Translations under genes and position numbers: made by a program
Part shown: positions 12,625-13,960 of the stretch, piece after piece
How the letters are laid out: each line of letters starts with the position of its first letter
Numbering within the stretch: the stretch's first letter is position 1
Assembly (NCBI GenBank): GCA_963764725.1
Contig: CAVXTM010000018.1
Location: forward strand, 320,001-384,000
Direction of reading: 5' to 3'
From: an uncultured Gammaproteobacteria bacterium
GTDB taxonomy: Bacteria > Pseudomonadota > Gammaproteobacteria > JACCXJ01
DNA: 64,000 nucleotides
The notes under the pieces: model-generated
What the model was told of the DNA's origin: nothing
Seen by the model: the letters and a program-made list of their open reading frames with translations, nothing else
Databases searched by the model: none

Positions 12625-12790
12625 CGGACTGTGGGGGCTGGTGGGCATCAATCCACAGACCTTTGGTTGCGGTGCGGCAGCTCGTCCAGCCCTTGGGACA
12701 TCAAGCCCGTGGGAGAGCAAAGAGCGTCGCGCCGTTTTCTCACCGACAACCCGAACGGTTGCTGGGGCCTGTAAGCCCGTATTTTTGCAA
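12625..12790 (+). ncRNA. Putative IS110 bridge RNA
   Basis: 5' hairpin, then a stem-enclosed loop with CCAGCCCT (12686-93) and GGGAGAG (12711-17) matching the REP target, then ACGGTTGCT (12755-63) identical to the element's right end (13758-66); ends approximate. Confidence 0.7.
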
Positions 12791-12798
12791 GGAGGGGT

Positions 12799-13755
12799 AT
12801 GGAGCGAGAACACTGTAGAGAAGTTTGTTGGCATTGATGTGTCCAAAGGCACGTTGGATATTGGTATTGAACCCACTGGAGAAGCCCTGCGTGTCGTTTA
12901 TGACGACAAGGGCATCGCTCAACTCGTCAAGCGTCTGGTGGCCGTTGGACCGACGTTGATCGTTATGGAAGCCACAGGCGGCCTGGAAGTGCGGCTGGCC
13001 AGTGAACTGGCGGCGAAAGGATTGCCCCTCGCCGTCATCAATGCCCGTCAAGCGCGCGATTTCGCCAAGGCGACGGGAGAATTGGCGAAGACGACTCGGT
13101 TGACGCCGCCGTCCTGGCGGCCTTCGCCCGCGCCATCCGGCCTGCGGTGCGACCTATCAAGGACGCGGACACCCGTGAGCTTGATGAACTCCTGACGCGG
13201 CGCCGTCAATTGATCGAGATACGCGTTCAAAGTAAGCGCTTCGTTTAGGCACGGCCTCGAAACTGCCACGCAAAAGCTTAGTGGCGCCGCATCGCTTGGC
13301 TGGATAAGCGCATTGCTGATCTCGACGTTGATTTGACCAAACGCTTGCGCGCCTCCGAGGCCTGGCGGGCTAAGGATGATCTGCTGCAAGGCATTCCTGG
13401 TATCGGCGCCGTCACCAGCTTGACGATGCTGGCTAAGTGCCCGGAACTCGGCAGCTTGAATCGCCGCGAGATCGCAGCTTTGGTGGGCGTGGCGCCGCTG
13501 GCGAACGACAGCGGAAAACACCGGGGTAAGCGCTTCATCTGGGGCGGCAGGGCCGATGTCAGAGCCGTTCTGTATATGGCGACCGTTACCGCCATCCGGT
13601 GCAACTCTGTCCTCAAGGCCTTCGCTGAGAGACTCAAACAGGCGGGGAAACCGGCGAAAGTGGTGATCGTCGCCTGTATGCGGAAACTGCTGACCATTAT
13701 GAATGCCATGTTGAAAAATAATGCCCCTTGGCAGCTGCAAAACACTCGACTTTGA
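12799..13755 (+). pseudogene. IS110 recombinase/transposase, multiply frameshifted
   Basis: FVGIDVSK, VMEATGG, AKT(D)..DA, IPGIG, ANDSGK, ACMRKLL; extra base just after ATG 12799 and further frameshifts near 13095 and 13230-13280. Confidence 0.9.
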
Positions 13756-13764
13756 ACACGGTTG

Positions 13765-13960
13765 CTCTCCCGGGGGGAGAGAGGATAACCGTGGCGCCCC
13801 GCAGTATCAAGGAAATTTGGTAGGCGCGATTGGACTCGAACCAACGACCCCCACCATGTCAAGGTGGTGCTCTAACCAGCTGAGCTACGCGCCTGCTTAT
13901 CAAGGGTGCAAGAGGATACCGAAAATCGTCGGTTCTGGCCAGAGGTAGGAAAGGTGCGGT
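13765..13960. repeat. Direct repeat copy 2 (REP half + tRNA-Val + upstream region)
   Basis: Matches 12389-12585. Confidence 0.92.
13818..13894 (-). tRNA. tRNA-Val(GAC), copy 2
   Basis: Identical to 12443-12519. Confidence 0.97.

What the first reader, a model, noticed from the sequence alone, without database searches (positions are those of the whole stretch)
12625..13790. Readable IS110 bridge RNA programmed against the host REP-like palindrome
Seen: the non-coding left end has a stem (GCGGC.GCTC/GAGC.GTCGC) enclosing CCAGCCCT (12686-93), a small inner hairpin and GGGAGAG (12711-17). Together these spell the target CCAGCC-CT-CTCCC. The intact REP at 12383-95 reads CCTGCC-CT-CTCCC (1 mismatch). 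A second loop has ACGGTTGCT (12755-63), identical to the element's right end, and the right junction reads ACGGTTG-CT-CTCCC, i.e. donor + CT core + target. Established: IS110/IS621 bridge RNAs have target- and donor-binding loops, a CT core and REP targets. Inference: this is a natural bridge-recombinase guide with a different specificity. The recombinase here is a pseudogene and the left junction is not canonical.
Basis: partly seen in the sequence, partly recalled or inferred. Interest (0 to 1): 0.78.

Follow-up and report, generated by a model that had tools for sequence, protein, structure and literature searches.

The report
IS110 element with readable bridge RNA
This is a decayed copy of a small jumping gene of the IS110 family whose own guide RNA spells out both its landing site, a repeated host hairpin, and its own ends; it is a clear example of a mechanism already described in 2024.

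Summary
Window 12586-13766 is one of six copies of a 1.18-kb IS110-group element in this genome. The true left end is 12586, not 12625. Its 213-nt non-coding left end carries two internal loops. The first (12685-12719) reads TCCAGCC-CT and GGGAG-AG, matching the host repeat CC..CC-CT-CTCCC. The second (12755-12793) matches the element's right and left ends.

The decisive evidence is comparative. In 22 relatives the 3' guide predicts the right flank at 95 of 110 bases (shuffled mean 43.9; 0 of 20000 shuffles reach it). The 5' guide tracks the left flank, and the donor guide equals the right end in 23 of 23. The stems show compensatory changes in 15 of 26 pairs.

The recombinase aligns with IS621 and ISCro4, catalytic residues included. 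It is intact in four other copies but broken here by four frameshifts.

The odd left junction has a cause. A 197-bp flank holding tRNA-Val is duplicated on both sides of the element, and a sister genome has it once. How that arose is unresolved.

This is a new member of a known kind and of moderate interest.

The parts
12586..13766 (+). Decayed copy (1181 bp) of an IS110-group insertion sequence; the other copies are 1178 bp
   Evidence: Ends set by alignment with five other genomic copies at 96-99% identity
12586..12798 (+). Non-coding left end (213 nt) encoding the bridge RNA. The non-coding right end is only 17 nt
   Evidence: Start codon at 12799-12801. Positions 12646-12800 are identical in all six copies
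12588..12593 (+). TATGTT, the -10 half of a promoter that is complete only when the right end is joined to the left end
   Evidence: Positions 3-8 of the left end match TATAAT at 4 of 6 or better in 16 of 18 relatives
12629..12658 (+). 5' stem-loop (CTGTGG ... CCACAG)
   Evidence: Paired in both single-sequence folds. It is enlarged in L006, L011, L020 and L024
12669..12735 (+). Target-binding loop module: outer stem 12669-12683 with 12722-12735 and a bulged A at 12679; inner hairpin 12695-12708
   Evidence: 14 pairs, 11 with compensatory changes, 92% of cells paired in 21 sequences. RNAalifold predicts the same stem
12685..12693 (+). Left target guide TCCAGCC plus core CT, in the sense of the target's top strand
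   Evidence: Matches the left flanks of canonical copies at 6-7 of 8 bases, or 7-8 with wobble. It covaries with left flanks across 19 elements
12711..12719 (+). Right target guide GGGAG, core-binding AG, and handshake CA
   Evidence: It is the reverse complement of the right junction TG-CT-CTCCC at 13763-13771. The 5-mer predicts the right flank at 95 of 110 bases in 22 elements
12749..12798 (+). Donor-binding loop module: outer stem 12749-12752 with 12795-12798; inner hairpin 12765-12778
   Evidence: Three of four outer-stem pairs show compensatory changes; the inner stem is invariant
12755..12763 (+). Left donor guide ACGGTTG plus core CT
   Evidence: Identical to the right end at 13758-13766. 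The 7-mer equals the right-end 7-mer in 23 of 23 elements, across 4 variants
12786..12793 (+). Right donor guide UGCA, core-binding AG, and handshake GA. It overlaps the ribosome-binding site AAGGAGG
   Evidence: Complementary to CT-TGTA of the joined ends, with one G-T wobble (read). AAGG is conserved in 23 of 25 rows
12799..13755 (+). Recombinase gene, broken here by four frameshifts; fragments appear as ORFs 12611-13195 and 13333-13755
   Evidence: Four other copies (L002, L003, L005, L006) have an open frame; L002's translates to the 315-aa protein, which carries PF01548 and PF02371
13746..13751 (+). The -35 half of the junction promoter. It reads TCGACT here and TTGACT in the five other copies, 15 nt before the right end
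   Evidence: A -35 of at least 4 of 6 sits at this exact distance in 18 of 21 relatives
13758..13771 (+). Canonical right junction: ACGGTTG-CT followed by the target's right half CTCCC
12584..12591 (+). Aberrant left junction: host GT then TGTATG, with no target left half and no CT
   Evidence: Copies L002-L005 read ...CC-CT|TGTATG
12389..12585 (+). First copy of the duplicated 197-bp host segment (right part of the hairpin, tRNA-Val GAC at 12443-12519 on the minus strand, and its upstream region). At its left edge lies an intact, unoccupied target site (12383-12395)
   Evidence: 96% identical to the second copy. It is single-copy in sister genome G001
13767..13952 (+). Second copy of the duplicated segment, with tRNA-Val GAC at 13818-13894 on the minus strand

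Best explanation
Window 12586-13766 is a non-autonomous, decayed copy of an IS110-group insertion sequence. Sister copies in the same genome are intact.

How the element works, inferred by homology with IS621:
- A DEDD/serine recombinase acts with a bridge RNA transcribed from the left end.
- The first internal loop reads the target. [quoted passage not shown] - Together they specify CC..CC-CT-CTCCC at the foot of a REP-like hairpin.
- The second loop reads the joined ends of the excised element in the same way: ACGGUUG-CU for the right end and UGCA-AG for the left end TGTA.
- Exchange takes place at the CT core.
- One or two bases after each 3' guide (CA and GA) pair with the other DNA after strand exchange. 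These are the handshake positions.
- A promoter is assembled only when the right end meets the left end: TTGACT, a 17-nt spacer, then TATGTT.

Shown here: the anatomy, protein family membership, and covariation of guides with flanks and ends. Inferred: catalysis, transcription and RNA dependence.

This particular copy is probably dead as a gene. It has four frameshifts and a mutated -35. Its left side was also rearranged, so that a 197-bp host segment carrying tRNA-Val flanks the element on both sides.
For: Copies and junctions:
- There are six genomic copies. Four (L002-L005) have the junctions ...CC-CT|TGTATG and GGTTG-CT|CTCCC inside REP-like hairpins.

Protein:
- It carries PF01548 and PF02371 and scores 203 bits on NF033542, cut-off 140.
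- It matches the solved ISCro4 (1.7e-40) and IS621 (1.1e-34) recombinases.
- D13, E57, D99, D102 and S237 align with the IS621 catalytic residues (residue names from passages).

Guides and flanks or ends:
- The right target guide predicts the right flank at 95 of 110 bases in 22 elements. The shuffled mean is 43.9 and the maximum 71; 0 of 20000 shuffles reach the observed value.
- Taking one element per distinct guide (13), the figure is 58 of 65 against a shuffled mean of 21.7.
- The left target guide matches the left flank at 112 of 133 bases in 19 elements, against a shuffled mean of 86.8 and maximum of 103; 0 of 20000.
- The left donor guide equals the right end in 23 of 23 elements, across 4 variants.

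Scaffold:
- 91.8% of cells are paired and 15 of 26 pairs show compensatory changes; 0 of 500 shuffles reach this.
- Slid controls give 31-45% paired.
- RNAalifold finds the same stems and leaves the target guides unpaired.

Handshake and promoter:
- C follows AG in 25 of 25 target loops and faces the G before the donor core.
- G follows AG in 23 of 25 donor loops and faces the C before the target core.
- The junction promoter is conserved.
Against: - No experiment was done here and no transcript is shown.
- Single-sequence folding is no more stable than shuffled sequence.
- In the single-sequence fold, CCC of the left target guide pairs with GGG of the right target guide.
- RNAalifold pairs part of the left donor guide with the right donor guide, without any compensatory change.
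- No Rfam family matched.
- The genome holds no perfect 13-nt target. The best are 18 sites with one mismatch, and the natural left flanks each differ from the guide at 1-2 positions.
- Some relatives fit poorly on one side: L021's right flank matches at 2 of 5 bases and L023's left flank at 4 of 7.
- The window copy lacks a left target half and a left CT. It also has a mutated -35 and a broken gene, so it may do nothing at this locus.
Confidence: 0.92

Rival explanations
1. The structured left end is only a leader of the recombinase mRNA, or a set of protein-binding subterminal repeats. On this view the matches to the ends and to the target have no guide role.
For: The donor-loop match could be read as a subterminal repeat of the right end. 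The 3' part of the donor loop overlaps the ribosome-binding site. Fold energy is unremarkable.
Against: Host flanks are not part of the element, yet they covary with the loop at 13 distinct specificities. The stems around the loops keep pairing through compensatory changes. The protein belongs to a family shown to need such an RNA (passages).
Confidence: 0.03
2. Left junction, version A. The recombinase itself made it. An excision used the true left end and an unrelated site 197 bp beyond the right end, giving a circle of the element plus host DNA. That circle re-entered an empty copy of the site, either through the CT-CTCCC half-site or through homology.
For: The structure A-CT-[segment]-[element]-CT-[segment]-B is exactly what this path predicts. 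Preprints report one-sided ('half-match') boundaries, partial or expanded circles and tandem repeat units at IS110 loci: Hu et al. 2026.08.14.744561, abstract and sections 8 and 9 read; Xie et al. 2026.08.31.748434, abstract only. The junction keeps T where the core has CT.
Against: The host bases before the junction match the left donor at about 3 of 7 positions by my own reading. No circle or joint was seen. The path needs a cell or population that also held an empty site.
Confidence: 0.3
3. Left junction, version B. Host processes made it. Unequal exchange or template switching duplicated [element + segment] in tandem. One element copy was then lost precisely, restoring the intact site at 12383-12395.
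For: The same final structure results. Tandem duplication of whole IS110 modules is reported (Hu et al., section 8). The intact first site is what precise excision would leave.
Against: It needs two events, and no intermediate with two element copies was found among the eight same-genus genomes (G001-G008) searched. Microhomology at the breakpoint is a single T.
Confidence: 0.3
4. The arrangement is an assembly artefact.
For: The element is a six-copy repeat.
Against: This copy has its own indels and substitutions. The two 197-bp segments differ at about 4% of positions, so the reads would be distinguishable.
Confidence: 0.03

Closest known systems
IS621 of Escherichia coli (IS110 group): bridge recombinase with bridge RNA (Durrant et al. 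2024, PMC11208160; Hiraizumi et al. 2024, PMC11208158)
   Same: - The protein has the same two domains and the same catalytic residues.
- The RNA lies in the left end, with a 5' stem-loop followed by target and donor loops.
- In each loop the 5' guide has top-strand sense and the 3' guide is complementary, around a CT core.
- Both have handshake positions and a promoter formed at the joined ends.
- Both insert at a repeated palindrome.
- The donor right half read from the numbering (C8 T9 T10 G11 T12 A13 T14) equals the left end here (CT-TGTAT). A G-T wobble falls at the same place.
   Different: - The phmmer match is at 1.1e-34, so the relationship is remote.
- The target is CC..CC-CT-CTCCC, against ATCAGGCCTAC for IS621.
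- The left donor is different.
- Nothing has been tested experimentally for this element.
ISCro4 transposase (PDB 9t56)
   Same: It is the best solved relative (1.7e-40, aligned over residues 8-311).
   Different: Only the protein sequence was compared. I did not see its RNA or its target.
ISPpu10 of Pseudomonas putida (Na et al., bioRxiv 2026.03.19.712850; abstract only)
   Same: It is an IS110 element whose insertions fall in copies of one intergenic repeat with a GC-rich stem-loop next to the paired site. Here every canonical insertion lies at the foot of a hairpin.
   Different: Whether the hairpin itself contributes to recognition here is untested. In that abstract the stem-loop is a 5' extension, whereas here the hairpin lies 3' of the core.
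Expanded IS110 loci and half-match recombination (Hu et al. 2026.08.14.744561; Xie et al. 2026.08.31.748434)
   Same: A boundary that keeps only one canonical donor half, together with duplicated DNA next to the element.
   Different: Here the added DNA is 197 bp of the element's own flank, not kilobases of cargo. The link to the recombinase is inferred only.
ISMno7-family IS110-like elements (plasmid annotations)
   Same: It is the closest named annotation in the plasmid collection, at 49.5% identity over 96% of the protein.
   Different: It is too distant to be the same element. The closest relatives overall (71-82% identity) are unnamed copies in metagenome-assembled Pseudomonadota genomes.

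Membership tests
IS110 family, IS110 group (bridge recombinase plus bridge RNA) | Recombinase with an N-terminal DEDD RuvC-like domain and a C-terminal Tnp domain carrying the catalytic serine | tested here: met
   The intact L002 protein carries PF01548 and PF02371 and scores 203 bits on NF033542 (cut-off 140). D13, E57, D99, D102 and S237 align with the IS621 catalytic residues. The window copy itself is frameshifted.
IS110 family, IS110 group | Long non-coding left end, short right end, no terminal inverted repeats and no target duplication; a CT dinucleotide at both junctions | tested here: met
   The left end is 213 nt and the right end 17 nt. CT is present at both junctions in L002-L005. 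In the window copy only the right junction meets this.
IS110 family, IS110 group | The left end encodes an RNA with two internal loops. In each, the 5' strand matches the top-strand sense and the 3' strand is complementary, for target and donor respectively | tested here: met
   The layout agrees with the passages seen.
IS110 family, IS110 group | Guide segments covary with the target flanks and with the element ends across orthologues | tested here: met
   0 of 20000 shuffles reach the observed value in each test.
IS110 family, IS110 group | Conserved scaffold stems, and handshake bases that pair with the non-cognate DNA | tested here: met
   for the stems; for C and G after the core-binding AG.
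IS110 family, IS110 group | A sigma-70-type promoter reconstituted at the junction of the right and left ends | tested here: met
   TTGACT lies 15 nt before the right end and TATGTT at left-end positions 3-8, giving a 17-nt spacer. This is conserved in 18 of 21 and 16 of 18 relatives. The evidence is sequence only. No plus-strand promoter-like site lies upstream in the integrated window copy.
IS110 family, IS110 group | RNA-dependent recombination of donor and target, reprogrammable by changing the loops | not testable with these tools
   This needs an in vitro or plasmid recombination assay.
REP elements in the strict sense (mobilised by RAYT transposases) | A repeated extragenic palindrome associated with a Y1 (RAYT) transposase gene | tested here: inconclusive
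   Nineteen strict copies of the hairpin repeat fall into two subtypes, often in head-to-head pairs. Six PF01797 matches exist in the genome, but none lies within 22 kb of a repeat copy. I therefore call it REP-like only.

The most novel reading that the evidence does not exclude
The 197-bp duplication that puts a tRNA-Val gene on both sides of the element may be the scar of a one-sided ('half-match') bridge-recombinase event. In that reading a minimal IS110 excised together with host DNA and re-entered its own REP-like target. This would be natural capture and duplication of a host tRNA gene by a bridge recombinase. Separately, this clade is a natural reprogramming series: at least 13 right-guide specificities sit on one conserved scaffold, including shifts of register within the same repeat family.
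Probability: 0.3. Interest if true: 0.55.

Novelty: new member of a known kind. Interest (0 to 1): 0.35.

Why it matters
The mechanism was published in 2024, and bridge RNAs were then predicted in most IS110 elements, so this adds no new principle. Its value is as a clean natural case.

The guide code can be read by eye. Intact and decayed copies, unoccupied sites and a sister genome with the empty locus are all at hand. About twenty relatives keep the scaffold and donor loop while the target loop has been rewritten many times. That offers ready-made, naturally validated loop and target pairs for testing a compact 315-aa recombinase.

The rearranged left junction is a small natural example bearing on current claims that these enzymes act on half-matched sites and enlarge their loci.

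Tried and rejected
- Rfam scan of 12000-14200 at E up to 1. It found only the two tRNAs and two sub-threshold HPnc0260 hits lying over the tRNA genes, which I take as spurious. No bridge-RNA family matched. I do not know whether Rfam holds one.
- Single-sequence folding as a test of structure. The z-scores are not significant, so I relied on comparative data.
- Laying public runs. All four runs are contigs. No joint from the right end to the left end was seen, which says nothing either way. DNA contigs of X1 and X2 carry the unbroken allele, ending in other hairpin sites. An RNA-library contig of X15 covers 12621-12771 without differences at depth 2.3. DNA carry-over cannot be excluded, so I do not count it as expression.
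- The third TTGCTCTCCC match at 27347-27356 has no similarity to the element and is chance.
- The plasmid collection search gave no close named relative; the best was 53.6% identity.
- REP/RAYT association was not found.
- Of the 66 related loci, 43 were left out of all tests. They are contig-end or fragment matches without the upstream region.
  - Right-guide test: L023 (no recognisable right end), L008 (truncated) and L025 (3-nt flank) were dropped.
  - Left-guide test: L011 and L025 (4-nt flanks) and L010, L008, L032 and L037 (left end not located) were dropped. The window row was replaced by the canonical flank of L002.
  - Scaffold alignment: L010, L030, L032 and L037 were left out.
Durrant et al.'s supplementary tables of predicted bridge RNAs may already list relatives of this element; I could not see them.
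- Literature: one search. I did not search for a name for this element and make no claim that it is unnamed in ISfinder.

Full report
**What is there.** The region holds two identical tRNA-Val(GAC) genes on the minus strand, at 12443-12519 and 13818-13894. They lie inside a direct repeat of about 197 bp, 12389-12585 and 13765/7-13952, whose copies are 96% alike. Between the two copies lies a 1181-bp block.

A search of the window's own genome found five more copies of that block at 96-99% identity. It also found a 105-bp right-end fragment (L007) and a 74% match to the non-coding part (L008). A 31-nt piece (L009) belongs to a copy split by another insertion.

Aligning the copies with their flanks fixes the ends. 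The element starts TGTATGTTCT at window 12586 and ends ACGGTTGCT at 13766. In L002, L003, L004 and L005 the left flank reads CCCTCACCC...CC-CT directly before TGTATG. The right flank reads CTCCC followed by the second arm of a hairpin. L006 has the same flanks but a variant left end. There is no target duplication other than the shared CT.

**The gene.** Four copies (L002, L003, L005, L006) have an open frame, which in L002 translates to 315 codons. L004 and the window copy are broken. The window copy has an extra G at 12801, a missing C after 13091, an extra GT at 13232-13233 and an extra C at 13287, plus about nine substitutions. One of those substitutions changes TTGACT to TCGACT near the right end.

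The intact protein carries PF01548 and PF02371. It scores 203 bits against NCBIfam NF033542, 'IS110 family RNA-guided transposase', whose cut-off is 140. It aligns end to end with the solved ISCro4 (1.7e-40) and IS621 (1.1e-34) recombinases. In the IS621 alignment, D13, E57, D99, D102 and S237 stand opposite the residues that Hiraizumi et al. name D11, E60, D102, D105 and S241. The deposited chain is numbered two higher (passages).

All are at the stated coordinates. Within the window alone they are only weakly beyond chance. The folding energy of the left end is no better than that of shuffled sequence. In the single-sequence fold three bases of the 5' guide pair with three of the 3' guide. 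That is expected, because both cover the same core in opposite senses.

**Comparative test.** A scan of one genome per species found 66 related loci at 35-82% protein identity, mostly in metagenome-assembled Pseudomonadota. Twenty-three have the upstream region. With the window and L008 they give 25 rows. The non-coding region aligns well.

On 21 sequences my four-helix scaffold has 91.8% of cells paired. Fifteen of 26 pairs show changes on both sides, and 0 of 500 shuffles reach the observed values. Partners slid by 1-3 columns give only 31-45% paired.

RNAalifold, run independently, finds the same outer and inner stems and leaves both target-guide strands unpaired. It does pair part of the two donor-guide strands with each other, without any compensatory change.

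**Guides against DNA.**
- *Right target guide.* The five bases before the invariant AGC on the 3' side of the first loop, reverse-complemented, equal the first five bases of the right flank. They match at 95 of 110 positions in 22 elements. The shuffled mean is 43.9 and the largest value 71; 0 of 20000 shuffles reach 95.
- Taking one element for each of the 13 distinct guides gives 58 of 65 against 21.7. Examples: L024 has guide CCCCA and flank TGGGG, L026 has GGGGC and GCCCC, L035 has GGTTT and AAACC, and L037 has ATCTT and AAGAT.
- *Left target guide.* The 5' side of the same loop matches the left flank at 112 of 133 positions in 19 elements. The shuffled mean is 86.8 and the largest value 103; 0 of 20000. 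A one-base register shift was allowed for real and shuffled pairs alike.
- *Left donor guide.* The 5' side of the second loop equals the last seven bases before the right-end CT in 23 of 23 rows, across four variants.
- *Right donor guide.* The 3' side of the second loop (UGCA-AG in the window, 12786-12791) is complementary to CT-TGTA of the joined ends, with one G-T wobble. The left end hardly varies, so covariation cannot be tested there.
- *Handshake positions.* The base after each core-binding AG behaves as Hiraizumi et al. describe. C in 25 of 25 target loops faces the G before the donor core. G in 23 of 25 donor loops faces the C before the target core.

Poor fits exist. L021's right flank matches at 2 of 5 bases, L023's left flank at 4 of 7, and L029 and L036 right flanks at 3 of 5.

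**Promoter.** A hexamer matching TTGACA at 4 of 6 or better lies exactly 15 nt before the right end in 18 of 21 relatives. TATGTT or similar occupies left-end positions 3-8 in 16 of 18. The spacer is therefore 17 nt only when the ends are joined. This is the arrangement reported for IS621. In the integrated window copy no plus-strand promoter-like site lies upstream.

**The target.** The repeat is a roughly 32-nt unit with two subtypes. Type A (CCCTCACCC...CC-CT-CTCCC, loop, GGGAGAGG) is used by this element. Type B (CCCTCATCC...CC-TT-CTCCC, loop, GGGAGAAG) is not. The two are often head to head about 37 bp apart. There are 19 strict copies, and none is near a Y1 transposase gene.

The genome has no perfect 13-nt match to the guides. 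It has 18 sites with one mismatch, 11 of them in type A repeats, including the unoccupied site at 12383-12395.

Relatives L017 and L031 carry the guide GGATG and sit at CT|CATCC, a different register of a type-B-like repeat. So the clade has been retargeted even within one repeat family.

**The left junction.** The window copy is preceded by ...GGTGCGGT, which is the end of the duplicated host segment. It has no left half-site and GT instead of CT.

A same-genus genome, G001 (flagged unpublished), has the DUF559 gene, the intact hairpin, one tRNA-Val and the downstream sequence in one continuous stretch, with no element. Seven same-genus genomes each give one strong match to the segment. They are fragmented assemblies, so collapsed duplicates cannot be excluded.

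The duplication is therefore derived and tied to the element. Two histories fit:
- excision of the element together with 197 bp of flank from a one-sided boundary, followed by re-entry;
- tandem duplication followed by precise loss of one element copy.

Recent preprints describe one-sided boundaries and tandem units at IS110 loci. Nothing here decides between the two histories.

**Comparison and verdict.** The element works like IS621 and meets every family feature that sequence can test. RNA-dependent, reprogrammable recombination is untested. Durrant et al. report covariation over thousands of IS110 elements and predicted bridge RNAs in 85.7% of ISfinder IS110-group entries. This is therefore a new member of a known kind. 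It is a clear one, with a decayed copy in the window and an unexplained but tractable rearrangement at its left side.

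Noticed in passing
window 11981-12361 (minus strand), with 11994-12037 and 12372-12414: A DUF559 gene (PF04480, 3e-40) is bracketed by inverted copies of the same REP-like repeat, and its last roughly 19 codons run through one copy. A second DUF559 gene (C16:189180-189494) also has a target-type repeat right beside it, at C16:189525. 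A third does not.
   Followed up: partly
window 13956-14002: A second short repeat (a palindrome GAATTTCGG ... CCGAAATT) starts 3-5 nt after the end of the duplicated segment. It recurs dozens of times in this genome and in same-genus genomes (matches to query positions 190-236).
   Followed up: no
L005:456-1500 (G000:C10): This copy of the element has an otherwise canonical left junction. Its left end is split after nt 31 by a roughly 1.05-kb insertion with about 27-bp inverted ends, a 324-aa ORF and an 8-9-bp target duplication. The insertion looks like another insertion sequence; I did not run it against a family library.
   Followed up: partly
L006 (G000:C18:73691-74896): This copy has a variant left end. 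The first 10 nt of the left end are followed by a second, diverged start (TGTATGG...), and the 5' stem-loop carries a 28-nt insertion. The join falls after a CT inside the left end. The gene is intact.
   Followed up: no
L008:1300-1660 minus strand (G000:C2): A truncated relative of the element has a nearly identical donor loop but a different target loop (predicted right half-site CAGCG). It is cut off after about 170 nt of its gene and abuts another coding region.
   Followed up: partly
L007:1500-1625 (G000:C11): A solo right-end fragment (about 105 bp, 86% identity) still sits at a CT|CTCCC hairpin.
   Followed up: no
window 12786-12801: The right donor guide and its handshake base (UGCAAGG) coincide with the ribosome-binding site AAGGAGG. 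The 3' strand of the donor-loop outer stem lies between that site and the start codon. Folding of the guide RNA and translation of the recombinase may therefore compete.
   Followed up: no
L024:1140-1200: In this relative the 3' strand of the donor loop is interrupted by about 25 extra bases before a second copy of the CAAGG motif.
   Followed up: no
window 12345-12481 and 13741-13856: Sub-threshold Rfam hits to HPnc0260 (44 bits, cut-off 59) lie antisense over the tRNA-Val genes. They are most likely spurious similarity to the tRNA.
   Followed up: no
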